Shown: positions 112 to 47,603 of the stretch, in pieces
Position numbering within the stretch: the stretch's first letter is position 1
Layout: every line of letters starts with the position of its first letter
Origin: a virus
Taxonomy: Duplodnaviria > Caudoviricetes
Virus record (IMG/VR): IMGVR_UViG_3300045391_005020
Length of the DNA stretch: 64,000 nucleotides
Strand: one strand, 5' to 3'
Made by a program: the position numbers and the translations under genes
Notes under the pieces: generated by a model
Seen by the model: only the letters and a program-made list of their open reading frames with translations
Databases searched by the model: none
What the model was told of the DNA's origin: nothing

Positions 112-2016
112 TTAGGGCGTCCCGGGCGGCTTCTTTCCGTAGTGGCCGGTTTGAGCCAGGCTGTCGCCGAAGTTGACGCCGCGGGCCAGCGCCGGCACGA
201 ACGAGGTGCTGTTGGGGTCGGATTCGGCGCCACGCGCGACCGACTTCTGGAACGCACTGGTGGTGTAGAAGCCGGCCAGCTGGGTCTGCCAATCCGGATC
301 CTCGTGGACGCCCAGTAGGCCGCGCTGCATGTGCGGAGCAAACCCCGGTGCTTCCTCGTGGGTGTGGACGTCCTTGATTCCGTAGCGATGCAAGTGGTCC
401 GCGATCTTGCGGGTCACGCGAGTCCCGACCGTGTAATGGAGCGCTGGCTCTTCCAGGTAGCGCCCGATGGCCTGCTTTGGTGGCGCCAACGTCGCAGTTG
501 GGCGCGGCTTATACGCATGGGTGAGCTGGTTATGCGACACGACGTCGTCAACCACGTGGTCGCCGATTCCTTCGTGGTCGGTGACCTTCGCCCAATTCAT
601 GAGTCCGGCCACGACTGCTTCCAGGTTGCGCCGGTGCGTCGAAATACCGGAGTTGTCCAAGGCCTCCTTGAGGAGGTTGGTGTAGACCCGGCGGGCCTCG
701 CCGAGGCCGCGATGGTGCACGAGATCGATCGGGTGCGGGACGCCGTCCGTCAGGTCGTCGCCTTCGTCGACCGTGTCGCCCGGTTTGACCGTCGGGTTCA
801 GGCCGTCGTGCACGTACAGCTTGTGGTCACCAAGCTCGATGTAGTGGCCGCCCTGCGGGGCCTTCTCGACCGACTTGATCTGACCGGCCTGCGGGGCCAG
901 CGGGCCAGCTTCCGGGAATGACTCAGGAGCCTGAATGAGTCGGTTCAGGTATTCGAATCCGTTGCGGTTGATTTTCTCGGTACCGGTCACACCCGAGGTG
1001 TGCTTGGAATTGAGCATGCCCTGGCTGAGCTTCTCGCCGATCGACTGCGCCGCTGCGATCCCGATGTTGTCACCAATCTTGGAGAGGCCGAAGCGGTCGC
1101 GCCGACCGGCAGCGAAGCGGGAGATCCCGCCGTCCGGCGTCGATTCTGTCAGGGGCGAGTGGATCAGGATTTCGTCGACGCCTTTGCTGTCGAGGTCCTT
1201 GAGCATGTGTGAAGTGAGCGTCGTTCCGGCCGCGAGGACTTTGTCCGTGCCAGGAATCGTGATCGGCGCGGCCAAGACGGCGCCGGCGTTGTCACGGTCT
1301 TTCGGGTGCACCGGAAGCCCGACAGGAAGGCGAGTAGCGTCTGGAGCGTCCTTGGTGACGACGAGTCTGTGCGCCGCGTTGACGAGCTGCTTATTTAGAA
1401 ATCCCGCGTCGCCGACAGCGAACTTCGTGCCGATCATACCGCGACGCTGACCGTACAGACCCGCGAAATATTCGACCGGATCCAGGCCTTGCGCGTAACT
1501 ACGCCAAATCGGGACCGGGATGACTTTGCCGGTGTGGTCGCTGGTCAAGAGATCCGCGCCGCGTAGCGAGTTGTAGTCCGACTTCTTGCCGCGGGCTCCG
1601 CTGATGAGCTGCAAGTAGAATGGATTGTTTTCCTGCTTGGCCTCTTCGAACAACGCGTTCTGGAGATCCTGGCCGAGCGGCAGCAGGGTATTCACCACTG
1701 CGTCGTCTTTCTTGTCGGCCGGAATCCGATCGTCGTCGACGATCTGCTGAATCTTCTGCTTCGCCGCCGCGAGCAGCTTTTCCTTCGCGGGCGAAGTCCG
1801 GAGCGACTTCAGGTCCACCGATGTGCCTTCGTCCCACGCGCTCGAGCGCCCAATGTCGTTGAGCTTCTTCAGCACGTCCTTGTAGCGGTCCGGGTAGCGT
1901 TCTGCTACCTCGCGCATCAGCTCCTGCACACCCTTCGAATCAAGAACACGATCTTCGTTCCGGAGATCTTCCGGAAGCGCGTCGTTGAGCAGGAGTCGGC
2001 CAACGCTGGTATCCAT
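112..2016 (-). CDS. Phage RNA polymerase beta' C-terminal subunit (bridge helix/trigger loop half)
   Basis: GQRRGMIGTKFAVGDAGFLNKQLVNAAH resembles the RpoC bridge helix and AAQSIGEKLSQGMLNSKH the trigger loop. Likely start is MDTSVGRLLL at 2016 (ORF track extends to 2079). Confidence 0.9.
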   Translation of the reverse strand: MDTSVGRLLLNDALPEDLRNEDRVLDSKGVQELMREVAERYPDRYKDVLKKLNDIGRSSAWDEGTSVDLKSLRTSPAKEKLLAAAKQKIQQIVDDDRIPADKKDDAVVNTLLPLGQDLQNALFEEAKQENNPFYLQLISGARGKKSDYNSLRGADLLTSDHTGKVIPVPIWRSYAQGLDPVEYFAGLYGQRRGMIGTKFAVGDAGFLNKQLVNAAHRLVVTKDAPDATRLPVGLPVHPKDRDNAGAVLAAPITIPGTDKVLAAGTTLTSHMLKDLDSKGVDEILIHSPLTESTPDGGISRFAAGRRDRFGLSKIGDNIGIAAAQSIGEKLSQGMLNSKHTSGVTGTEKINRNGFEYLNRLIQAPESFPEAGPLAPQAGQIKSVEKAPQGGHYIELGDHKLYVHDGLNPTVKPGDTVDEGDDLTDGVPHPIDLVHHRGLGEARRVYTNLLKEALDNSGISTHRRNLEAVVAGLMNWAKVTDHEGIGDHVVDDVVSHNQLTHAYKPRPTATLAPPKQAIGRYLEEPALHYTVGTRVTRKIADHLHRYGIKDVHTHEEAPGFAPHMQRGLLGVHEDPDWQTQLAGFYTTSAFQKSVARGAESDPNSTSFVPALARGVNFGDSLAQTGHYGKKPPGTP

Positions 2017-2024
2017 CGCGGCCC

Positions 2025-2234
2025 TTACTGTTTGTTGATGATCTGAACCTGCGCGGCCGTGATTCCGAGCTCGCGGCACTGTTGCGCGAAATCTGGCTGA
2101 GCGGCATCGCTCGCAACGATCATCCGTTCATGCTCGTACGCGAGCGCGGCCGGAGTTCCGGCCTCGGTATAGACCACGACTTGGCTGACCGGGATCGTGT
2201 ACGCCCGGCCGTCTTTCACGAACCGGATGAACAT
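2025..2234 (-). CDS. Small hypothetical protein (69 aa)
   Basis: Compact ORF tightly packed between neighbouring genes in the RNAP operon. Confidence 0.6.
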   Translation of the reverse strand: MFIRFVKDGRAYTIPVSQVVVYTEAGTPAALAYEHERMIVASDAAQPDFAQQCRELGITAAQVQIINKQ

Positions 2235-2906: not shown

Positions 2907-5900
2907 TTACGGGTGTAAAATTTTGACTGGGTCGCGGACCGAGATCTCGCCGCGTTTGTAGGCCTTGAGGACATCTTCCTTGGTCGCGAACACCCTGGTC
3001 TGCCGGGCTTTGTCGGGCTGGCTAGCCAGGTACAGGCCGGCCAAGTATTCCTGGCTCGGCAACAGGTGGACGTCGAACGAGGCCGGGTGCAGCAAGTTCT
3101 TGGAGGGCAACAGCTTCTCTTTCGCCTCGTCGACGGCCTTGTCGGAAACCGGGAGGTGGACGTTGATGGCGTCGCCGTCGAAGTCGGCGTTCATGCCCTT
3201 CGTGACCGACTGCGAGATCGAGATGCTGGAGTCCTTATTGATCCGGGCGTGGCCGGCGACGTAGTTGAAACGGTGGAGCGACGGCGCGCGGTTGTAGATA
3301 ACCGGTCGGACCTTCATTTCGGCGTCCAGGTGGTGCTTCGCCGCGGGGGTGCGATCCCGAACGGCCTTCACGGCTTCGGCGGCCGGCGTGCCTTCACGAA
3401 CCAAGCGGCGGATCACGAACGGCCGGAACATCCGCCACGCCATATCTTCTGGGATCCCGACCTGGTCCATGTCGAGCTCGGGATCGATCGTGATGACCGA
3501 GCGACCAATGGTGTCGACCGAGTTACCCAGCACCTTGCGCTGGAACCGACTGTACTTGGGCGAATCCTTGACCCCGATCGCGAACCGGAGCATGCCGCGC
3601 ACGCCCTGTTCGGCCGTCTTGGGATTCACCGGATCCGTGAGGCCAGCGACCGCTTTGGCGGCGTTGTACATGGTCAGGTATTCGTCGCCGTTCTCGCCGA
3701 GTTCTTCACCGGCGCCCTGATAGTTCTTGGCTGACTCCATCAGGTCTTTGTAGAGGTAGTTGGCGTCGTGGATCATGTCGACCCCGCGGGCACGCATAAT
3801 CGGGCGATGCTTCGGAGGCAGGACCGCCATCTTGGAGATCATCAGGTCTTCCGGTTTTACCCCTTGGGTCTTGAGTCCCTGGAGGTACCCGAGACGCCGG
3901 ACCGCGTCATCGCGGTTTGACCGCGATGCAGTTCGGACCTGTTGCTTTGCGAGCTCGATCTCACGATCGACGTTGATGGTCTTGAGCGCGTCCTCGATCG
4001 CTTGCGGGCCCGACTTGCCATTGATCTGTTCTTTGCCAGCCAGGATCTGCTCGAACTTCTTGCCGGTGAGTCCGAGGATGCGCGTGATCGGCTCCTCAGC
4101 CATTGGGTTTGGGATCTTGGCTGGCAGCACGATCTTGCTGAAGCGTGTGCCTTCGGCGCCTCCGGTTTTTCCGAGATCGAACAGACCGCCTTCGACCGGC
4201 TTCATGGTGTTGAAGTCGAACGTGTCGGGCTTCGAGATCTCGTGTTGGGCCAGACGATCCACGTCGGCGTCGGTCATGAAGCCGAGCTGCTGACGACCGT
4301 CCGGCTTGTCCTTGATGTTGACGCCGGCCGAGCGGAGGAGATCGAGGAAGTGACCGTTGGCGAACGATTTACCCTGCTGGGCCGGTGTCTGACCTGTTTT
4401 GAGCTGGCGCCAGAAATCGTCGTTACGCTGACCGCGAACCAGTTTCGCATCCTTGAGGAACTCGGTGGCACCGGCGCTCAGAAGGGAGTGGATGTCGAGG
4501 AGCCCAATTCGCTTCGAACCGTCGGGGCCGCCGCGCGCCGGCGACTCGTCTGCCGAATAGCCGCCTGTGTCGCGTGCCGACATTTTCGACTCAGCAGTAT
4601 GGTGGAGCTTCAGGATGTACTGGTTGCCCGTGAAGACGTTCGGGATCCGGCGGCCGTTCCGCGGATCACGCAACGTTTCCGTCTCTTTGACGCCGTGTTT
4701 GTGGGCTTCATTCAGGGCGAAGTCCGCGAGCCCTTCGGGAGTCGAGAAGGACTTCAGGTTGTAGGGTTGTCCGCGCTTCTCGGCTATCTTGCCGAGCAAA
4801 GTGGTGACCAGGCTGGACGGATTAACGCGCGTGATAATACCAGTCGGGGCCATCAGGACGTCCATCGGGCGACCGTCCTCGTCGTGCGGCATCTGATCGT
4901 CCGGGATGATCTTCGAGACCACGCCCTTGTTACCGTACTGTCCGGAGAGCTTGGATCCGACCGACATTGGCTCGTACGATTTGACCGTGACCTTTACGCC
5001 TGAACGGGTACGGGCCACATCGGTCACCACGCCTGGCTGCGGGTGATCCCACACTTGGCTGATGTCCGTGTAGAGCGACTTCGGCCCGTTGGTGAGCGCG
5101 CCTTGTGCGCGGCCCTGACGTTTCCCGATCGCGACCATGACCGGATCGCCTGGATTTATAGTCTGACCGACTTGGACGGTGCCGCTTTCGTCGAGCTTGT
5201 CGTATTGAGCCTTCGAGAACCGATCGCCGTAGATCGCGCGGTAGTCGTTGGTCTTGGTCGAGTGGACTTCATCGCCGAGATCGAGCGAGTGCTTGTACTG
5301 ATGTTCGCTCGACAGCTTCTTCGCGGCCGATTCAGAGATAGCGACCGAGTCGTCGTAGGTCAGACCTTCGCCAGCCAGGTAAGCAACACGGAGATTTCGG
5401 CCAGGTGCCGCATGACCATTTCGATCAGTGAAGTTCGAGTGAGCCAGCAGCTGACCCGGCTGCACCACGTCGCCAGCCTGGACGACCGGTGTGTTGTGGA
5501 GCATGGTTTTGCGCGCGAGCGGGTAGTGGTTGTAGAGCTCATAATGCTTCTGCTGACCGCCCTCATGGAGGACGTCGATTCCATCCGGTGTCACCTTCAC
5601 GACGCGGCCCGGCGCTTCCGAGTGCACCGCGCCGGCGTGGCTGCCCATCTGCTGGTAGAACGATTTGCCTTCGTGGTCGAGCGGATGGACGAGCGGCGCC
5701 TCCGCATCTTTGAGAGGAAGCGCCTGAGTGGTCATACGCGCACCCATTAGGAGACGCTGTGATTTCACGCCTTCGAGGAGGGGGACCATGTTGGACGCGC
5801 GGCTAAACAGGTGGGTCGCATCCGGGAGTTCGTACTTCACCTTCGAGCGGTCGATGTACTGGATCTTGTGCCCGACCATCGCACGAACTTTGCGTTCGCC

Positions 5901-7313
5901 CTTTGCGAGCTCGCCCGGGAAAGCGATCGCGTGGTTCGCCATCTGGCGCGCCGACAGCGTCTCGAGTTTACCGGTCGCGGGATCGCGGAGCGTTGTGTAC
6001 AGCTGACCGTCTGAGCCCTTGAGGGCCGCGTCGGTAACGCGCATGTCGAGGCCGATGTTCGATGACTCCGGGGCGCGCACGCCATCGATGATGCCGAAGT
6101 AACTCGGCTGCACGCCTCGCGCGTCACGCGAGACAGATTGGGTGGAGCTGATTCCGCCCTCGCCCAGGCGCGTGATTGCCTGACGCTGATCGTAGGTCTC
6201 GAACGGGTTGATGTCTTCGACCGCCGAACTGAGTCCGGTGCGGTACAGTGCGTGTACATTCGGGGTCAGGATGCCGGAACGGAGCTTGTCGAGCTTGCCC
6301 GATTTCGCCGCACCCCAAAGGAGCTTGCGCATCTCGCCAGCCTGGTCGCGCTCGAGACGTTCACGGATCAGATCCTCGGCCGAGTGGACCGACTGGAACG
6401 CTTGCGAGTCGCGGTTGTCGCCCTCTTCCTGGTTGTTCGCGACGCGCAGAATTTTCTGCGTCGCCTTCGTGAGCGCGTCGAGTCCTGGGCGATCGTGCTG
6501 ACCGCCGAGCGTGAGCTCACTGACTTCCGGATCGATGCGGGCGCGGTCCAGAATGGTCTGCAGGGCTTTCGGGAGTTCGTGATCGGGAGCTTCGCGCTCA
6601 GCTTGGCGGCCGAGCTTCTGGACAACCTTGCGGAGATCCTGCTGATCGTGACCGCTGACTTCGCGCCAGTTCTGTTTGAACAGCTGTTCGCCCCAAGCCT
6701 GCTTGAGATCTTCGTCTTTGACCCCCAGCGCTTTCAGGAGTGGATACAGACGCGTCTTTGACTGTTCGACCTGGAGGTTGAACACACCAGTTTCGGGATC
6801 CAGGTTGACGCGGAATCCGCGACCAGTGCCGGGCTTCACGTTCACGTGCGCCTCGACGCCGCCATTCTGCTGACGCCGCACGTACACGCCCGGACGCAAC
6901 CGGGCCTGATTCCTGATCGAATAAGGAACACCGTTGTGAATGAAGAGACCGCGCGAGTTCAGGTGCGGCACGTGGGCCAGCACCGCGTTCTGTTCATCCA
7001 GGACCTGGTTGGTCTTGTTGTCGACGAGTCGGATCCGTCCCTTGATCGCGCGCTGGAGACGGCCGCCTTCCAGGAGAGCTTTCTTTTCGTCAGCACGAGT
7101 CGGATTGTAGTCGCCGTCGTAGTCGGCATTCACCAGTTCGATCCGGTGCGTGTCGTTCTGGATCGGAAAACGTGTTCGAACGCCCTCGAGGGCGTTGTCG
7201 TAGATGGCTTGGCGCTGGCCAGCGACGTCGTCAAAGCGACGAAGCGTGACGGGCTTAGGCGGCGTTACCGGCTTAGGCGCGGCGCCGGATAGGGCATCAA
7301 GAAAGTCGGCCAT
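2907..7313 (-). CDS. Phage RNA polymerase, fused beta + N-terminal beta' (catalytic) subunit
   Basis: RpoB motifs GSKLSGQYGNKGVVSKI and LKLHHTAESKMSAR. RpoC motifs follow: KPVEGGLFD, VLPPKHRP, LGNSVDTIGRSVI, NRAPSLHR and the catalytic NADFDGD. Confidence 0.95.
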   Translation of the reverse strand: MADFLDALSGAAPKPVTPPKPVTLRRFDDVAGQRQAIYDNALEGVRTRFPIQNDTHRIELVNADYDGDYNPTRADEKKALLEGGRLQRAIKGRIRLVDNKTNQVLDEQNAVLAHVPHLNSRGLFIHNGVPYSIRNQARLRPGVYVRRQQNGGVEAHVNVKPGTGRGFRVNLDPETGVFNLQVEQSKTRLYPLLKALGVKDEDLKQAWGEQLFKQNWREVSGHDQQDLRKVVQKLGRQAEREAPDHELPKALQTILDRARIDPEVSELTLGGQHDRPGLDALTKATQKILRVANNQEEGDNRDSQAFQSVHSAEDLIRERLERDQAGEMRKLLWGAAKSGKLDKLRSGILTPNVHALYRTGLSSAVEDINPFETYDQRQAITRLGEGGISSTQSVSRDARGVQPSYFGIIDGVRAPESSNIGLDMRVTDAALKGSDGQLYTTLRDPATGKLETLSARQMANHAIAFPGELAKGERKVRAMVGHKIQYIDRSKVKYELPDATHLFSRASNMVPLLEGVKSQRLLMGARMTTQALPLKDAEAPLVHPLDHEGKSFYQQMGSHAGAVHSEAPGRVVKVTPDGIDVLHEGGQQKHYELYNHYPLARKTMLHNTPVVQAGDVVQPGQLLAHSNFTDRNGHAAPGRNLRVAYLAGEGLTYDDSVAISESAAKKLSSEHQYKHSLDLGDEVHSTKTNDYRAIYGDRFSKAQYDKLDESGTVQVGQTINPGDPVMVAIGKRQGRAQGALTNGPKSLYTDISQVWDHPQPGVVTDVARTRSGVKVTVKSYEPMSVGSKLSGQYGNKGVVSKIIPDDQMPHDEDGRPMDVLMAPTGIITRVNPSSLVTTLLGKIAEKRGQPYNLKSFSTPEGLADFALNEAHKHGVKETETLRDPRNGRRIPNVFTGNQYILKLHHTAESKMSARDTGGYSADESPARGGPDGSKRIGLLDIHSLLSAGATEFLKDAKLVRGQRNDDFWRQLKTGQTPAQQGKSFANGHFLDLLRSAGVNIKDKPDGRQQLGFMTDADVDRLAQHEISKPDTFDFNTMKPVEGGLFDLGKTGGAEGTRFSKIVLPAKIPNPMAEEPITRILGLTGKKFEQILAGKEQINGKSGPQAIEDALKTINVDREIELAKQQVRTASRSNRDDAVRRLGYLQGLKTQGVKPEDLMISKMAVLPPKHRPIMRARGVDMIHDANYLYKDLMESAKNYQGAGEELGENGDEYLTMYNAAKAVAGLTDPVNPKTAEQGVRGMLRFAIGVKDSPKYSRFQRKVLGNSVDTIGRSVITIDPELDMDQVGIPEDMAWRMFRPFVIRRLVREGTPAAEAVKAVRDRTPAAKHHLDAEMKVRPVIYNRAPSLHRFNYVAGHARINKDSSISISQSVTKGMNADFDGDAINVHLPVSDKAVDEAKEKLLPSKNLLHPASFDVHLLPSQEYLAGLYLASQPDKARQTRVFATKEDVLKAYKRGEISVRDPVKILHP

Positions 7314-41912: not shown

Positions 41913-41987
41913 TGGTGCCCACGGCCACGAATCGCACGAGCGTCTCCTGAGTACAAAACAGGTGTCCTGCTACTGGACGACGCGGGC
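41913..41987 (-). tRNA. tRNA-Thr(TGT)
   Basis: CCTGT-TTTGTAC-TCAGG, CCA. Bulged T-stem. Confidence 0.7.
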
Positions 41988-43682: not shown

Positions 43683-44468
43683 TTATGGTTCAGGGGCCCA
43701 GGTGACCGAGCTGAACTCGATGTGCCTGGTAGAGTCTGGATTCCAGACGTCGAACACTTTGACGCCGGTTCCTTCGTCCATCGGGATATAGGCGTCCGCG
43801 GCGCTCACGTTGGTGAGCGGGCTTGGCGGGTTCGACTGATACGTTACCGCATAGAAGTTTCGCATGTAACCGTTGATTCCCGGGTTGTCGTAGCCGACGC
43901 GCATCCCGAGGAGACCAGCGCCCGTCGTGATGTTCGCCCCGACTGTTCCAGAGACCACTGAGACTCCGTTGAGAAACACAGCCGTTACGCGAGACGTGTT
44001 GACGGTGATCCTGATTGTGTTCCACGCACCGAAGTTGAATAGACCGGGAGCTGAGCTGTTCTGGAAGGCTCCGCCCGCCCATTGTGCTTGCCAGCGCAAC
44101 GATCCGTCACCCATCACCCGTAACTCATACCCGTAATTTGAGACGTTCCACGGTGCCCCGAAAGAGAACAAGCCAGCGGATCCAGAGGCGTGATTGACTT
44201 CGAACTCCCACGTGCGGGCCTGGAGACCGCCGGCCGCGATGTGCCACATCGTGTTTCCGCGCCCGTAGAACGCCTGGTTGGTGCTGCCGAGGCTCTGGAG
44301 GTTGGTGTCGAACGGCCGATCGTAAATCGTTTCCGGCATGCGCCCGCCCTGGACGGCTTCAACATGCGAGAGAGCCTCGGTCTTCCGGAACCTGTCTTGC
44401 TCGATCTGGTTCTGCTGGCCAGCTGGAGTTCGACTCTTACCGTTGTCGGTTACGCGGAATTTAGGCAT
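43683..44468 (-). CDS. Concanavalin A/LamG-like lectin domain protein
   Basis: Beta-sandwich pattern WNTIRITV..VFLNG..INGYMRNF and YIPMDEGTG..VFD. Confidence 0.6.
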   Translation of the reverse strand: MPKFRVTDNGKSRTPAGQQNQIEQDRFRKTEALSHVEAVQGGRMPETIYDRPFDTNLQSLGSTNQAFYGRGNTMWHIAAGGLQARTWEFEVNHASGSAGLFSFGAPWNVSNYGYELRVMGDGSLRWQAQWAGGAFQNSSAPGLFNFGAWNTIRITVNTSRVTAVFLNGVSVVSGTVGANITTGAGLLGMRVGYDNPGINGYMRNFYAVTYQSNPPSPLTNVSAADAYIPMDEGTGVKVFDVWNPDSTRHIEFSSVTWAPEP

Positions 44469-44506
44469 ACCACAGAGTTTATGGTTGCCATGTCGGCATA
44501 CTAGGG

Positions 44507-44582
44507 TGGCGTCGCGGGGTGGGCTCGAACCACCAGCCTCCAGCTTCGGAGGCTGGTGCTCGTCCGATCGAGCTGCCGCGAC
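44507..44582 (-). tRNA. tRNA-Arg(CCG)
   Basis: CCAGC-CTCCGAA-GCTGG, CCA. Confidence 0.85.
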
Positions 44583-44586
44583 AAAA

Positions 44587-44661
44587 TGGAACGCATGCTG
44601 GGAATCGCACCCAGATCCTCTCGCTGGCAGCGAGACGTCTTAGCTGTTAGACGACACACGC
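44587..44661 (-). tRNA. tRNA-Gly(GCC)
   Basis: TCTCG-CTGCCAG-CGAGA, U73, CCA. Confidence 0.8.
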
Positions 44662-44667
44662 GTGAAA

Positions 44668-45096
44668 CTAAAGAAGCGGAAGCTGTCCCGTCACGGGATC
44701 GATCTCGTGGTCCCAGTGTGGACCGATCGCCAGACACGTCTTGGTCGGAACCCCGTTGAACTCGGTGAGGCCGCGGTCTTCGATCAGATGACACCGTAGC
44801 CCACGAGCCTTCGCGGCCAGCTCGATGTCGAGCAAGGCCTGCTCGGACTCAACGTAGCAGCAGATCTTCCGGAAGTTGCCGAAGTACCAGGCTTGCTCGG
44901 CCGGATCCAGGAAGATCCCGTCGAGCTCGATTTTGACGTCGTTGTCCTTCAGGCCTGGACGGCTCTCGCGCGGCCCGAACACTTTGAGCATCAGGGCTGC
45001 GATGCTGGCATGAGATCCCTGAGCGATCATCTTACCCTTGCGCATATTGAGGTCCTTGCGGACCACGATCACTTGCTTAACCGAGTTGACTGACAT
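44668..45096 (-). CDS. pth2: Peptidyl-tRNA hydrolase, Pth2 family
   Basis: KQVIVVRKDLNMRKGKMIAQGSHA and DRGLTE..TCLAIGP. Confidence 0.92.
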   Translation of the reverse strand: MSVNSVKQVIVVRKDLNMRKGKMIAQGSHASIAALMLKVFGPRESRPGLKDNDVKIELDGIFLDPAEQAWYFGNFRKICCYVESEQALLDIELAAKARGLRCHLIEDRGLTEFNGVPTKTCLAIGPHWDHEIDPVTGQLPLL

Positions 45097-45135
45097 GGCA
45101 GCACTGTACAGAGTCCTTGTTGGGTTGGAAGGAAA

Positions 45136-45212
45136 TGGTCCGCCGCGTAGGACGTGCGCCTACATCCCCCGGTTAAGAGCCGGGTGCATCTGTCTGTTTA
45201 TGCTTGCAGCGA
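45136..45212 (-). tRNA. tRNA-Lys(CTT)
   Basis: CCCGG-CTCTTAA-CCGGG, CCA. Atypical T-loop CGCACGT. Confidence 0.8.
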
Positions 45213-45218
45213 ATGAAG

Positions 45219-45293
45219 TGGTTGACCACCACGGGGTCGATCCGTGTTCCCTCGGTTAAAAGCCGAGTGCATCAGCCCTAATGCTTGTGATCT
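45219..45293 (-). tRNA. tRNA-Lys(TTT)
   Basis: CTCGG-CTTTTAA-CCGAG, CCA. Confidence 0.8.
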
Positions 45294-45299
45294 GTGAAA

Positions 45300-45373
45300 T
45301 GGAGGCGCGAGGAGGAATCAAACCTCCGTGGACAGGGTTGCAATCTGCCGCCTGGTCACTCGGCCATCGCGTC
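45300..45373 (-). tRNA. tRNA-Cys(GCA)
   Basis: TTGCAAC loop, U73, CCA. Confidence 0.85.
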
Positions 45374-45470
45374 TTGAAAAGTAAAGGGTGCCCGTTCTTC
45401 CTATTGGTAGAAGAACGGGACTTGTTGGTGTCACGCGTGATGACACCACGGGTACGGTCGTCCGGCCCAG

Positions 45471-45758
45471 TCAGGCGACTTCTGGAGTTCGCTGCTCCGG
45501 GAGACCGAGGAACGCATTGCGCATGTTCTCGATGCGCGACTCTGGCGACCGGTGCGCCGTCGGCTTACCGCGGATCACAAGCGAGAGGTCGTGAAGGGTG
45601 CTGATCAGGAGCGCGTTGTAGTGCGCCTGAGACTGCGCGACGCGAGCTGCGTTGCTCACGTGTGGCTCGTGCGTGACCGCCTTGAAGGCGACCTGCATGG
45701 CAACGAGCTTCTTGAGCTCGCACCGTATTTTGTAGACGTCGTCGGAGATCTGGGACAT
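45471..45758 (-). CDS. Hypothetical helical protein downstream of the Pth2-like gene
   Basis: 95 aa with RBS aaagg, directly following the Pth2-like gene. Confidence 0.55.
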   Translation of the reverse strand: MSQISDDVYKIRCELKKLVAMQVAFKAVTHEPHVSNAARVAQSQAHYNALLISTLHDLSLVIRGKPTAHRSPESRIENMRNAFLGLPEQRTPEVA

Positions 45759-45761
45759 TGG

Positions 45762-46097
45762 TTACCTTTCAGGATTCCAGAGTTTGTGGTGACGAAACAG
45801 TTTCCTGGCCTCGCCCGAGATGGGCGCGGTCGCGAGCGCGGTAGCGGCGTTGCCGATATCGGGCTCTCGGAAGAGAGTGAGAGGAATGCCGGCCCCGGTG
45901 AGCCGCTCAGCTTCCTGGAGAAGCTCGAGCTCAGACGGGACACCGATCACGATCAGGTGGCTGATCTGGTCGGTCTGGTACGGGTGGAGGAGTGCGACCT
46001 CGTGGGTCGCGTGGGCAGCCTGAACAAGCTGCTGGGCCAATGGCAGGTCTAGCCTGACAAGGCAGTAGACGTAGCCGGGTAGCTAGGCGTTCTTCAT
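45762..46097 (-). CDS. Pth2-like protein interrupted by in-frame TAG at codon 5 (readthrough candidate)
   Basis: ATG AAG AAC GCC TAG CTA CCC GGC TAC GTC TAC... reads MKNA*LPGYVYCLVRLDLPLAQQLVQAAHA...FREPDIGNAATALAT. Confidence 0.75.
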
Positions 46098-46138
46098 GGT
46101 AACGATTTCACCAAGCTGACCAGGGCGGTCAAGGCTAT

Positions 46139-46372
46139 TCAATCTTCGTAATCCAGCTTCTGGAGCTCGTCCAGATCGCGGTCACTCAGGTGCTCTTCGG
46201 GCGAGGGCGTGTTCAGCAAGGTGACGCCGTTGATCGCGGTCACGTGCTTCATGTAGCGCTTCAGGAGCTCTTTGTAGTCGGGCTCAGCCTGCTGGACCAT
46301 AACGGCAAGCCGGTTATTCGACTTACCGATCTGGCGCAGGTTGGCTTTGAAGGTATCGGACGCTTTAGTCAT
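46139..46372 (-). CDS. Hypothetical protein (77 aa)
   Basis: Strong RBS aggag, between the suppressor tRNA and the Pth2-like gene. Confidence 0.55.
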   Translation of the reverse strand: MTKASDTFKANLRQIGKSNNRLAVMVQQAEPDYKELLKRYMKHVTAINGVTLLNTPSPEEHLSDRDLDELQKLDYED

Positions 46373-46384
46373 GGCTGGCTCCTA

Positions 46385-46460
46385 TGGTGCCCCCGGTGGG
46401 ATTCTCGCCCACAACCGCCGGGTTTAGAATCCGCCGCTCTTGATATTGAGCTACGGGGGC
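46385..46460 (-). tRNA. Amber suppressor tRNA (anticodon CTA)
   Basis: 76 nt: GCCCCCG TA GCTC AATATCAA GAGC G GCGGA TTCTAAA CCCGG CGGTT GTGGG CGAGAAT CCCAC CGGGGGC A CCA, with CTA at positions 34-36. Confidence 0.8.
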
Positions 46461-46467
46461 ATGGGGG

Positions 46468-46496
46468 ACTATGGCACAATATAACGCCACAGTCAA
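46468..46496 (-). promoter_or_regulatory. Sigma70-like promoter for the suppressor tRNA
   Basis: TTGACT-17 bp-CATAGT with TG extension. Confidence 0.6.
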
Positions 46497-46517
46497 GGCC
46501 ATTGTCACGAATCGGAC

Positions 46518-47411
46518 CTACTCCTGGCCCTCGCGCTTGTATTCATTCATCTTACTGATCTTCAGGTTGACCTCTTCGACTGCCTGCTTCTTCTGCTTGG
46601 TCTTGGCACCTTTACGGGCGCTGGCAGAGCGTTCGTCGATCATGCGGTCTCTGGTGTTGCCGAGCAGGTCCTCGGTGGCGCTGAACAGACGCTTAACCGA
46701 TTTGTCTTCGCGCCACTGCTCTATCGCCCAGGTGCAGTTCCAGTAGTTGTCGCTGGAGCCCGAACCGATGCGATCACCCAGCACCGCGTTGCGGAGGACC
46801 AAGATCGGACTGCCTTCAGGCAGATCCGTGCCGGCCAGGTATGAGTCGATGAACTCCTCGGCCTTCCGAGGATAGAAGTGATGGAAAACCACCATTGCCG
46901 CCGCGATGGTCGCGCGGGTTAAACGAGCACGTTTCGTGTTGAATTTCCCGGTCACGAACTCGAACGACGCAGACATCTTGAGGAAAGTGTCCTCGAGTTC
47001 GTCGATCGTCGGGCGGTGGTGGACGCCGGTGCACTTCAGATACTGGCTAACGATCTGATTGCAGAGACGGTTATGGGCCGGGTCATTCAGAAGTTTGAGG
47101 CACTCGAAGCTGGTACGATTGCGACCGCGGTCCGTATGCTTAGCGATTTCAGGACTACCGCCGCGCATGACGTACATCCACTGCCCTTTGCCAGTAATGA
47201 CGATCGCGGCGAGTCGGTGTTGGCCGTCGAGTACTTCACCGTCTTTACCGATGCAGATACCCTGATGGGTCGTCATGAACTCATCGTTCATAATAAGCCG
47301 GACGAAGTAATCGGTATTGGCCGGCGTCATCGGGCGCGCGTTGTTGTGGTTGTGGTTTTTTAGCAAGTCCTCGGCTATTTCCTTGGACACGTATTCTCGG
47401 TTGTACGACAT
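46518..47411 (-). CDS. ParB/Srx-like (DGQHR) domain protein
   Basis: N-terminal NARP..THQGI..LDGQHRLAAI. Confidence 0.7.
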   Translation of the reverse strand: MSYNREYVSKEIAEDLLKNHNHNNARPMTPANTDYFVRLIMNDEFMTTHQGICIGKDGEVLDGQHRLAAIVITGKGQWMYVMRGGSPEIAKHTDRGRNRTSFECLKLLNDPAHNRLCNQIVSQYLKCTGVHHRPTIDELEDTFLKMSASFEFVTGKFNTKRARLTRATIAAAMVVFHHFYPRKAEEFIDSYLAGTDLPEGSPILVLRNAVLGDRIGSGSSDNYWNCTWAIEQWREDKSVKRLFSATEDLLGNTRDRMIDERSASARKGAKTKQKKQAVEEVNLKISKMNEYKREGQE

Positions 47412-47525
47412 AGGATCTTTCCCGCCCGCTGTGGGCCATTTCGTAGACAGTGTAAATTCGCGTTACCGAGGCCAAATATACGAGCTGTTGCACACAGTCA
47501 AGATCATTGTATTGATCGTACTAAA

Positions 47526-47603
47526 TGGTCGGGATGGCGGGATTTGAACCCACGATCTCCTGGTCCCAAGCCAGGCGGAGTAACCAGACTCTCCTACACC
47601 CCT
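47526..47603 (-). tRNA. tRNA-Pro(TGG)
   Basis: CCTGG-CTTGGGA-CCAGG, CCA. Confidence 0.85.

What the first reader, a model, noticed from the sequence alone, without database searches (positions are those of the whole stretch)
45762..46496. Amber-suppressor tRNA(CUA) upstream of a Pth2-like gene that needs UAG readthrough at codon 5
Seen: a 76-nt tRNA (46385-46460) has CTA at positions 34-36 and its own TTGACT-17-CATAGT promoter. About 290 nt downstream on the same strand is ATG AAG AAC GCC TAG CTA..., and the family N-terminal strand YVYCLVRLDL lies between the TAG and the first alternative start (TTG 46040). TAG still ends other genes here (int, canonical pth2), and no long gene is broken by TAG, so this is not genome-wide recoding. 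Established: Pth2 recycles peptidyl-tRNA, and prfB uses an internal stop as an autoregulatory sensor. Inference: this is a stop-codon-gated switch. The second hydrolase would be made only when the suppressor outcompetes RF1, i.e. when termination is failing or the phage operon is active.
Basis: partly seen in the sequence, partly recalled or inferred. Interest (0 to 1): 0.92.

Follow-up and report, generated by a model that had tools for sequence, protein, structure and literature searches.

The report
Suppressor-tRNA-gated phage Pth2-like gene
A large soil phage that otherwise uses the normal genetic code has a UAG-reading tRNA 290 bases upstream of a small tRNA-hydrolase-like gene whose fifth codon is UAG; dozens of distant phages share this pairing, with stop codon and anticodon changing together, so it looks like a natural translational gate, not a broken gene.

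Summary
A 76-nt tRNA with anticodon CUA lies at 46385-46460(-) (Rfam 50.4 bits; ARAGORN misses it at its default threshold). 288 nt downstream is ATG + 3 codons + TAG + a 106-codon frame.

Read through, the frame gives a 111-aa protein. It models confidently (pLDDT 91) as a Pth2 fold. Its first core strand lies between the TAG and the only alternative start.

A second metagenome carries the same gene region. Three diverged lineages (80, 72 and 57% identity) keep an in-frame TAG at codons 4-6.

Among 71 distinct IMG/VR loci:
- 47 have ATG, 1-7 sense codons, then TAG.
- 40 of the 47 have a same-strand tRNA(CUA) within 10 kb.
- The three TGA versions with a suppressor nearby have tRNA(UCA) (Fisher p = 8e-5). 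On the protein tree the TGA forms arose separately.
- Shine-Dalgarno motifs precede the leader ATG.

This genome is not recoded: TAG ends about 9 genes and no other gene needs readthrough.

Best reading (0.7): the hydrolase is made only when the phage suppressor decodes UAG. Its purpose is not shown.

I found no published description. This scan has reported the same cassette on other DNA.

The parts
46468..46496 (-). Sigma-70-like promoter candidate (TTGACT, 17 nt, TG-CATAGT) ending 7 nt before the tRNA
   Evidence: It is the only promoter-like site in 44400-47600, but 1.2 are expected by chance, so it counts for its position only.
46385..46460 (-). tRNA with anticodon CUA (amber-suppressor type) and an encoded CCA end. 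Atypical: three-pair anticodon stem, D-loop without GG, T-loop CGAGAAU.
   Evidence: Rfam RF00005 50.4 bits. ARAGORN finds it only at 90% thresholds. L002 carries it with one base change that still allows the pair.
46139..46372 (-). 77-aa ORF between the tRNA and the gated gene, with AGGAG 6 nt before its ATG, starting 12 nt after the tRNA. Probably co-transcribed. Not a conserved partner of the module.
   Evidence: tblastn finds it only in L002. Weak match to phrog_21984.
46086..46097 (-). Leader of four sense codons, ATG AAG AAC GCC (M-K-N-A), preceded by GGTGA 10 nt upstream
   Evidence: Leaders of 2-8 codons, with Shine-Dalgarno motifs before their ATG, recur in relatives.
46083..46085 (-). 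In-frame TAG, codon 5 of the Pth2-like gene (the gate)
   Evidence: TAG is conserved at codons 4-6 in L003-L007 and at codons 3-9 in 47 of 71 distinct viral loci.
46041..46082 (-). Fourteen codons after the TAG that encode the family's first beta-strand (YVYCLVR) and the R-x-D-L motif. No canonical start codon among them.
   Evidence: Alignments. The AlphaFold model puts strand 1 at residues 9-15. Arg is AGG in two lineages and CGC in two.
45762..46097 (-). Whole gated gene: 111-aa Pth2-fold protein if the TAG is decoded. Gene callers report only the 92-aa TTG 46040 form.
45471..45758 (-). 95-aa ORF directly downstream, conserved only in the closest lineage. Context, not part of the module.
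   Evidence: 58% identity in L003-L005, absent elsewhere. No family match.
44668..45096 (-). Canonical PTH2 gene (142 aa), ungated. It ends in TAG with a TAA six codons later. Context: the phage has two Pth2-fold genes.
   Evidence: Pfam PF01981 100.4 bits. It is the only full PTH2 match in the genome..

Best explanation
This is one copy of a widespread two-part phage module: a stop-codon-reading tRNA and a small Pth2-fold gene that carries the matching stop codon a few codons after its start.

Proposed mechanism in this window:
1. Transcription from about 46496 makes the tRNA(CUA) first and continues into orf77 and the Pth2-like gene.
2. Ribosomes start at ATG 46097 and meet UAG at codon 5.
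3. Without a charged suppressor, RF1 releases (or the ribosome drops) a tetrapeptide, and no hydrolase is made.
4. With charged tRNA(CUA), the UAG is decoded and the full 111-aa protein is made, including its first core strand.

Hydrolase output therefore follows suppressor activity. This is a feed-forward gate.

What is shown by comparison: the module exists, the stop is conserved, stop and anticodon co-vary, initiation signals sit at the leader ATG, the product has a Pth2 fold, and the genome is not recoded.

What is inferred:
- The tRNA is expressed and charged, probably with Lys or Gln. That guess rests on my recollection that E. coli amber suppressors built from class I tRNAs often insert those residues.
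- The protein hydrolyses an ester bond on tRNA.
- Its job is to clear peptidyl-tRNA or other by-products that readthrough creates.
For: 1. Conservation of the stop.
- L002 is identical. L003-5, L006 and L007 (80, 72 and 57% identity) have ATG + 3-5 codons + TAG in frame with the conserved strand.
- Of 71 distinct IMG/VR loci, 47 have leader-TAG. In 44 of those there is no start codon between the stop and the strand.

2. Stop and anticodon co-vary.
- TAG with cta in 40 loci, TGA with tca in 3, and no crossed pairs; Fisher p = 8.1e-5.
- On the protein tree the TGA forms need 4 separate changes.

3. Linkage. All 40 tRNAs are on the gene's strand, 31 of 40 lie within about 1 kb, and the tRNA is often the only one in 20 kb.

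4. Initiation. A Shine-Dalgarno match of 5 nt or more precedes the leader ATG in 23 of 51 gated loci, against 1 of 51 and 5 of 51 at control offsets.

5. Context. The base after TAG is A or G in 45 of 47 loci. 54 of 64 suppressors have A37 A38.

6. The region after the TAG codes for protein.
- Strand 1 is residues 9-15 of a model with pLDDT 91 and Pth2 fold. Foldseek gives TM about 0.75 to 2zv3, 1wn2, 1q7s and 1xty.
- Synonymous AGG/CGC Arg codons occur in the strand.

7. No recoding.
- Stop use is TGA 99, TAA 70, TAG 13. Frames after TAG terminators are non-coding. No other gene needs TAG readthrough.
- Low-GC relatives show no excess of TAG-split frames.
Against: - Nothing here is experimental.
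- This window's tRNA is structurally poor: a three-pair anticodon stem, no G18G19 and no T54-psi55-C56. It may be a weak decoder.
- The base after this window's TAG is C, the rare context (2 of 47).
- TAG ends about 16% of ORFs of 100 aa or more near cassette tRNAs, and back-up stops are not enriched after them. So a strong constitutive suppressor is unlikely.
- One complete 360-kb genome (G003, locus L049) has the gated gene but no tRNA(CUA) that I could find.
- In Bxz1-type mycobacteriophages a GTG follows ATG-TAG directly, so the gate is not obligatory everywhere.
- Twelve loci keep the tRNA(CUA) next to a gene with an ordinary start. The link between tRNA and hydrolase is therefore broader than the gate.
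- The family scores below the Pfam PTH2 cut-off, and the motif lysine aligns to glutamine.
Confidence: 0.7

Rival explanations
1. Homeostat rather than feed-forward. The gate works as described, but the hydrolase acts back on the suppressor by deacylating aminoacyl- or peptidyl-tRNA(CUA). Suppression then limits itself at a low set point, as RF2 limits its own synthesis through the in-frame UGA of prfB.
For: - The tRNA and hydrolase stay linked even where the gate is absent (12 loci).
- TAG remains a common terminator with no back-up stops. That fits suppression held low.
- The active site differs from canonical Pth2, and a canonical PTH2 is also present here. A different substrate is therefore plausible.
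Against: The partner tRNAs are very diverse: different acceptor stems and discriminators, class I and class II bodies. A 95-111-aa domain cannot reach both the acceptor end and the anticodon (inference from tRNA geometry). It is therefore hard to see how it would single out CUA tRNAs. No test of substrate was possible.
Confidence: 0.15
2. Leader mini-ORF without suppression. Ribosomes terminate at the UAG, and the hydrolase is made by re-initiation (here at TTG 46040 or a non-canonical codon). The neighbouring tRNA(CUA) serves another purpose.
For: - Very short ORFs can couple to downstream starts.
- Bxz1 has ATG-TAG-GTG.
- L030, L035 and L060 have a start codon soon after the stop.
Against: - 44 of 47 TAG loci have no ATG, GTG or TTG between the stop and the strand, and the stop is always in frame with the domain.
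- The stop type follows the tRNA anticodon.
- A start at TTG 46040 deletes core strand 1.
Confidence: 0.08
3. The gate is read by host near-cognate tRNAs at a low basal rate. This window's degenerate tRNA(CUA) is a decaying or non-decoding tRNA-like element.
For: - Three-pair anticodon stem, no G18G19 and no T-psi-C.
- ARAGORN rejects it at default thresholds.
- The +4 base is C.
- G003 has a gated gene without a detectable suppressor.
Against: - The tRNA is intact in an independent sample, with a change that still allows the pair.
- It scores 50.4 bits, mid-range for this phage's tRNAs.
- It has an encoded CCA and a well-placed promoter-like site.
- Unpaired 31-39 is itself typical of these suppressors: 18 of 64 against 26 of 373 other tRNAs, p = 5e-6.
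Confidence: 0.1
4. Pseudogene or sequencing error, or genome-wide TAG reassignment (code 15).
For: A single in-frame stop is what a nonsense mutation looks like. Recoded phages do carry CUA tRNAs (Borges et al., bioRxiv 10.1101/2021.08.26.457843).
Against: - The sequence is identical in a second sample, and the stop is conserved in diverged lineages and dozens of phages.
- TAG terminates about 9 plus-strand genes here, with non-coding sequence after it, and no other gene is interrupted.
Confidence: 0.02

Closest known systems
Stop-codon-recoded phages with phage-encoded suppressor tRNAs (TAG read as Gln, 'code 15'; crAss-like, Lak and others; Borges et al., bioRxiv 10.1101/2021.08.26.457843; Peters et al., PMC9523058)
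   Same: A phage-encoded CUA (or UCA) tRNA is proposed to decode in-frame stops, so that certain genes are made only after the tRNA appears.
   Different: In those phages many late and lysis genes are interrupted, and TAG is rare as a terminator. Here a single small gene carries one stop at a fixed place next to its start, the rest of the genome uses TAG as a stop, and GC is 60%. The Borges text does not contain the word 'hydrolase'.
prfB (RF2) autoregulation through an early in-frame UGA
   Same: A conserved early in-frame stop in a translation-factor gene makes its synthesis depend on the state of stop-codon decoding.
   Different: prfB needs a +1 frameshift and senses its own product. Here the frame is unchanged and the sensed factor is a separate tRNA gene. 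Feedback by the product is not shown.
bldA tRNA(UUA) and TTA-containing regulators such as adpA in Streptomyces (PMC10732093, listed; details from my own knowledge)
   Same: One dedicated tRNA gates translation of a few target genes through a codon that is otherwise avoided.
   Different: bldA reads a rare sense codon. Here the codon is a stop in normal use elsewhere in the genome, and tRNA and target are physically linked.
Synthetic suppressor-tRNA feed-forward loops (PMC7969014, listed)
   Same: Same logic as the engineered circuit: an amber codon early in the target plus a co-regulated suppressor tRNA.
   Different: That circuit was designed. This one is natural and is conserved across phage lineages.
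Orphan suppressor tRNAs of standard-code phages (XacN1, PMC5852040; Summit, PMC9022506)
   Same: These phages have CUA tRNAs and standard coding. XacN1 also carries a member of this protein family.
   Different: The authors report that they could not identify target genes (abstract). The module described here offers a conserved target.
Lambda bar minigenes and peptidyl-tRNA drop-off (from my own knowledge, not checked in a paper here)
   Same: The leader is an ORF of two to a few codons followed by a stop. ORFs of that kind provoke peptidyl-tRNA drop-off and depend on Pth.
   Different: Here the mini-ORF is in frame with, and fused to, a Pth2-like coding region.

Membership tests
Pth2 peptidyl-tRNA hydrolase (Pfam PF01981) | Scores above the curated Pfam gathering cut-off (23 bits) | tested here: not met
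   19.2 bits for the 106-aa form and 17.0 for the 92-aa form. The window's canonical PTH2 scores 100.4.
Pth2 peptidyl-tRNA hydrolase (Pfam PF01981) | Pth2 alpha/beta fold | tested here: met
   AlphaFold2 model with pLDDT 91.0 and pTM 0.84. The top 11 Foldseek hits are Pth2 or Bit1 structures (2zv3, 1wn2, 1q7s, 1xty, 3erj, 1rlk), TM 0.73-0.76, probability 1.00. The family profile hits 2zv3 at E = 0.0015.
Pth2 peptidyl-tRNA hydrolase (Pfam PF01981) | Catalytic Lys of the GKxxAQxxHA motif and the catalytic Asp (residues recalled from the S. solfataricus work, not re-read here) | tested here: inconclusive
   The Lys column aligns to Gln21 of the AQQ motif. The Q..HA part, R-x-D-L and an acidic E-P-D block are invariant in the family. 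The active site is related but not the same.
Pth2 peptidyl-tRNA hydrolase (Pfam PF01981) | Hydrolyses peptidyl-tRNA | not testable with these tools
   Needs an enzyme assay.
Amber suppressor tRNA | tRNA cloverleaf above the Rfam gathering score, with U33, C34-U35-A36 and a purine at 37 | tested here: met
   RF00005 scores 50.4 bits against 29. The loop is UU-CUA-AA. ARAGORN at 90% thresholds reads cta.
Amber suppressor tRNA | Canonical elbow elements (G18 G19; T54 psi55 C56) and a five-pair anticodon stem | tested here: not met
   D-loop AAUAUCAA. T-loop CGAGAAU. 27-43 is G.G and 31-39 is A.C.
Amber suppressor tRNA | Is aminoacylated and suppresses UAG | not testable with these tools
   Needs tRNA sequencing or acid gels, and a reporter assay.
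Genome-wide TAG reassignment (code 15 phage) | Many genes interrupted by in-frame TAG, and TAG not used as a terminator | tested here: not met
   TAG ends 13 of 182 modelled genes, with non-coding sequence after it. Only the Pth2-like gene shows ATG-leader-TAG followed by a coding frame.
Suppressor-tRNA / stop-gated Pth2-like cassette (as defined by this comparison) | Leader ATG, 1-7 sense codons, an in-frame stop and no start codon before the conserved strand | tested here: met
   Window: 4 codons, then TAG, then 14 codons to the first start. The same pattern occurs in 44 of 71 distinct loci.
Suppressor-tRNA / stop-gated Pth2-like cassette (as defined by this comparison) | A tRNA whose anticodon matches the gate, on the same strand and nearby | tested here: met
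   Window: the CUA tRNA ends 288 nt upstream of the ATG on the same strand. Relatives: 40 of 40 on the same strand and 31 of 40 within about 1 kb.
prfB-type autoregulatory stop | The gene product itself acts on the in-frame stop (feedback) | not testable with these tools
   There is no evidence either way. See the homeostat rival.

The most novel reading that the evidence does not exclude
The pair is a self-limiting suppression homeostat. The phage needs a low, controlled level of UAG readthrough, for a purpose still unknown. It measures that level with the UAG at the start of the hydrolase gene. The hydrolase then removes the charged or peptidyl form of the suppressor, or the toxic products of readthrough. 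This would be a natural closed-loop controller of stop-codon decoding, carried as a mobile two-gene unit.
Probability: 0.15. Interest if true: 0.92.

Novelty: new variant of a known kind. Interest (0 to 1): 0.84.

Why it matters
Suppressor tRNAs in phages that use the standard code have been an open puzzle. The XacN1 and Summit papers state that no target genes could be found. This module gives those tRNAs a conserved, linked target.

It also shows a natural circuit in which one gene is switched by stop-codon decoding, with independent TAG-to-TGA switches matched by anticodon switches.

There is a practical consequence. Gene callers truncate or miss the gene: a 92-aa call here, no CDS in RsoM2USA, and two fragments in Salmonella phage Arash. 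The partner tRNA is also mislabelled: 'tRNA-OTHER' in Bxz1 and 'tRNA-Phe' in Arash.

Cultured phages of Mycobacterium smegmatis, Ralstonia and Salmonella carry the pair, so the idea can be tested at the bench.

Tried and rejected
- blastn of the region against 50,697 phage records found no match.
- An exact-pattern scan of IMG/VR for this tRNA's anticodon and T arm found no match. So I could not ask whether its odd D- and T-loops are conserved beyond L002.
- Genome-wide recoding is rejected.
- A count of same-frame open segments split by one stop was too noisy in GC-rich loci. In low-GC loci it showed no TAG excess.
- Back-up stops after TAG terminators:
  - In this genome 5 of 9 have a second stop within 6 codons, against 26-27% after TAA and TGA.
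  - This did not hold across cassette-bearing loci: 30% after TAG against 42%.
  - There is therefore no signature of strong suppression.
- orf77 and orf95 are not conserved partners of the module.
- No RF-1-domain gene is present in the 148.6 kb held, so there is no 'code-change module' of the Borges type.
- Pyrrolysine: ARAGORN's 'Pyl' label only reflects the anticodon. I did not search for pyl genes, and the stop/anticodon switches to TGA/UCA argue against a Pyl system.
- Five literature searches for suppressor tRNA together with Pth2 or peptidyl-tRNA hydrolase in phages found no description of the pairing. The held library lacks most subscription journals.
- The amino acid inserted at codon 5 could not be determined. 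The tRNA is not a recent copy of any other tRNA in the window (at most 51 of 76 bases identical).

Full report
**The sequence**

The window is the minus strand of a 148,649-base IMG/VR virus record. The record is about 74% complete with GC near 0.60, and nearly all its genes lie on one strand. The phage encodes multisubunit-RNA-polymerase-like proteins. It has a tRNA cluster of 20 ARAGORN genes between 39.5 and 50.7 kb.

Rfam adds two tRNAs that ARAGORN misses. One is a tRNA-Thr(UGU) at 41916-41987. The other, at 46388-46460, is the tRNA in the finding.
- It scores 50.4 bits against a gathering score of 29, and the alignment places CUA at positions 34-36.
- ARAGORN returns it as 'cta' once its thresholds are lowered to 90%.
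- It has an encoded CCA and a seven-pair GC-rich acceptor stem.
- It is atypical. Only three Watson-Crick pairs hold the anticodon stem (27-43 is G.G, 31-39 is A.C). The D-loop has no GG. The T-loop reads CGAGAAU.

The promoter-like TTGACT-17-CATAGT ends 7 nt before the tRNA. It is the only such site in 3.2 kb, but about one is expected by chance.

Twelve bases after the tRNA a 77-aa ORF starts, behind an AGGAG motif. After that ORF come, in order:
- ATG 46097 plus three sense codons;
- TAG 46085-46083;
- fourteen codons with no ATG, GTG or TTG;
- TTG 46040;
- the stop at 45764-45762.

**Not an error and not a dead gene**

A contig from an independent soil metagenome (L002) has the same gene region. 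Its tRNA differs at one T-stem base, which changes U50-A64 to U50.G64.

The three closest diverged lineages are L003-5, L006 and L007, at 80, 72 and 57% protein identity. Gene callers start all three at or inside the conserved region. Their DNA shows ATG, then 3 to 5 codons, then TAG, in frame with the family's first strand.
- The leader peptides differ: MKNA, MSTNL, MTAL, MSC.
- The strand after the stop is conserved as protein. Arg is AGG in two lineages and CGC in two.

**The family-wide picture**

A scan of IMG/VR with the family alignment gave 80 loci, 71 of them distinct. Most come from contigs of 100-500 kb, and GC ranges from 0.29 to 0.66.
- In 47 loci the gene has a leader of 2-8 codons counting the ATG (2 codons in 25 loci), then TAG.
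- In 44 of those there is no canonical start before the strand.
- ARAGORN finds a tRNA(CUA) within 10 kb in 40 of the 47. All 40 are on the gene's strand, 31 lie within about 1 kb, and the tRNA is often the only one in the 20-kb locus.
- Three loci with TGA in the same place (L018, L036, L040) have a tRNA(UCA) instead. There are no crossed combinations (Fisher p = 8.1e-5).
- On a maximum-likelihood tree of the protein the TGA forms fall in four separate places. The co-switches are therefore independent events.
- A Shine-Dalgarno match of five or more bases precedes the leader ATG in 23 of 51 gated loci, against 1 and 5 at control offsets. The exceptions are AT-rich phages.
- The base after TAG is a purine in 45 of 47 loci. 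The residue before it is Thr in 20.
- Most partner tRNAs have the loop CU-CUA-AA. An unpaired 31-39 position is enriched among them: 18 of 64 against 26 of 373 other tRNAs in the same loci, p = 5e-6. This window's tRNA shares that feature.

**Gated loci without a nearby suppressor**

I searched the whole record for several of these.
- A tRNA(CUA) turned up 40 kb away in G001.
- One turned up elsewhere in G002.
- One lies 13 kb away in Ralstonia phage RsoM2USA.
- G006 has one with a 31-39 mismatch.
- None turned up in the complete 360-kb genome G003. That case is unexplained.

**The protein**

Pfam PTH2 matches below its cut-off, at 19.2 bits against 23. The match reaches profile position 5 only when the residues after the TAG are included. 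A profile of the family finds archaeal Pth2 structures at E = 0.0015.

The AlphaFold2 model (pLDDT 91, pTM 0.84) has a beta-alpha-beta core. Its first strand is residues 9-15, which lie upstream of TTG 46040. Foldseek's top hits are Pth2 and human Bit1, at TM about 0.75. A protein started at TTG would lack a core strand.

The lysine of the canonical GKxxAQxxHA motif aligns to glutamine. R-x-D-L, Q..HA and an E-P-D block are invariant. It is a distinct small branch of the Pth2 fold, and its substrate is open. The phage also has a canonical, ungated PTH2 one kilobase downstream.

**This genome is not recoded**

In a simple codon-usage gene model, stops are TGA 99, TAA 70 and TAG 13. Nine plus-strand genes end in TAG with non-coding sequence behind them. 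They include the 297-aa gene just upstream of the tRNA and the canonical PTH2.

A scan of every TAG followed by a coding-like frame finds only the Pth2-like gene with the leader-stop pattern. Low-GC relatives show no excess of TAG-split frames.

Back-up stops are not enriched after TAG terminators in cassette-bearing loci. That argues against strong constitutive suppression. No release-factor gene is present in the held sequence.

**Cultured phages and the literature**

The family occurs in 242 GenBank phage records. Of these, 204 are Mycobacterium phages; every one listed is of the Bxz1 type.
- Bxz1 has ATG-TAG-GTG at the start of gp154. A CUA tRNA lies 300 nt downstream, annotated 'tRNA-OTHER'.
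- RsoM2USA has M-L-TAG and no annotated CDS.
- Salmonella phage Arash has M-L-TAG. Its gene is split into two CDS, and a CUA tRNA one kilobase downstream is annotated tRNA-Phe.
- XacN1 carries the domain fused to a longer N-terminal region. Its authors wrote that they could not identify genes targeted by its two CUA tRNAs.

Borges et al. do not mention a hydrolase. Five searches found no paper that pairs suppressor tRNAs with Pth2.

This scan's own notes report the same cassette in at least 53 other genomes. I treated them as leads only and re-derived the counts above independently.

Four MAG contigs attributed to bacteria also hold the family. Two of them show the leader-TAG pattern together with a CUA tRNA. 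A third has a CUA tRNA nearby, but its N-terminus was not examined.

**Reading**

Most likely (0.7), ribosomes start at ATG 46097, and the full protein is made only when the phage's CUA tRNA decodes the UAG at codon 5. Hydrolase output would then follow suppressor activity.

The purpose is inferred, not shown. Two options are:
- clearing peptidyl-tRNA or other by-products of readthrough;
- feeding back on the suppressor itself (0.15).

Twelve loci keep the tRNA beside an ungated gene. This suggests that the tRNA-hydrolase partnership is the older relationship and the gate a later addition.

Noticed in passing
window 41916-41987 (-): A second tRNA that ARAGORN misses: tRNA-Thr(UGU) by my reading of the loop, Rfam 41.9 bits, also with a mismatched 31-39 pair.
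   Followed up: partly
window 2907-7313 (-) and 112-2079 (-): A 1468-aa protein combines RNA polymerase beta (Rpb2 domain 6) and beta' (Rpb1 domains 1-2) segments. The next gene has Rpb1 domain 5. This is a jumbo-phage-type multisubunit RNA polymerase.
   Followed up: no
L011:9967-10010: In the closest IMG/VR relative (55% identity), the leader (ATG + 6 codons + TAG) is one base out of frame with the Pth2-like domain, at a run of five C. It is either an assembly indel or a real frameshift requirement. A CUA tRNA lies about 200 nt upstream.
   Followed up: partly
G003 (record of L049), whole 360,451-base genome: A complete genome with a TAG-gated Pth2-like gene (M-K-D-T-TAG) in which I found no tRNA(CUA) among about 53 tRNAs. 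A tRNA-like minihelix (acceptor and T arm only) lies at about 190.3 kb.
   Followed up: partly
64 suppressor tRNAs of L008-L087: Position 31-39 is unpaired in 18 of 64 suppressor tRNAs against 26 of 373 other tRNAs of the same loci (Fisher p = 5e-6). Two partners are class II tRNAs with long variable arms (L050, L056), so the inserted residue probably differs between phages.
   Followed up: partly
L088 (Bxz1), L090 (RsoM2USA), L091 (Salmonella phage Arash): Public annotation is affected. The CUA tRNA is labelled 'tRNA-OTHER' in Bxz1 and 'tRNA-Phe' in Arash. The gated gene has no CDS in RsoM2USA and is split into two CDS in Arash.
   Followed up: yes
L041:9430-10300 and L089 (XacN1 ORF364): The Pth2-like domain is fused behind a region of about 180 residues; an HD-like motif by eye in L041, not run through Pfam. 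In L041 an M-S-F-T-TAG leader still sits in frame at the far N-terminus of the fusion.
   Followed up: no
L029:8761-8836: One relative has a tRNA with anticodon UUA (ochre type) 1.1 kb upstream of a Pth2-like gene that has an ordinary ATG start.
   Followed up: no
P0001 against PHROGs: phrog_34073 is a 77-position profile that matches only residues 44-107. It was probably built from gene calls truncated by the in-frame stop.
   Followed up: no
window 46518-46520 (-): The 297-aa gene just upstream of the tRNA (weak ParB/GmrSD_N-like match; not an integrase by Pfam or PHROGs) ends in TAG. Readthrough would add 50 residues before a TAA.
   Followed up: partly
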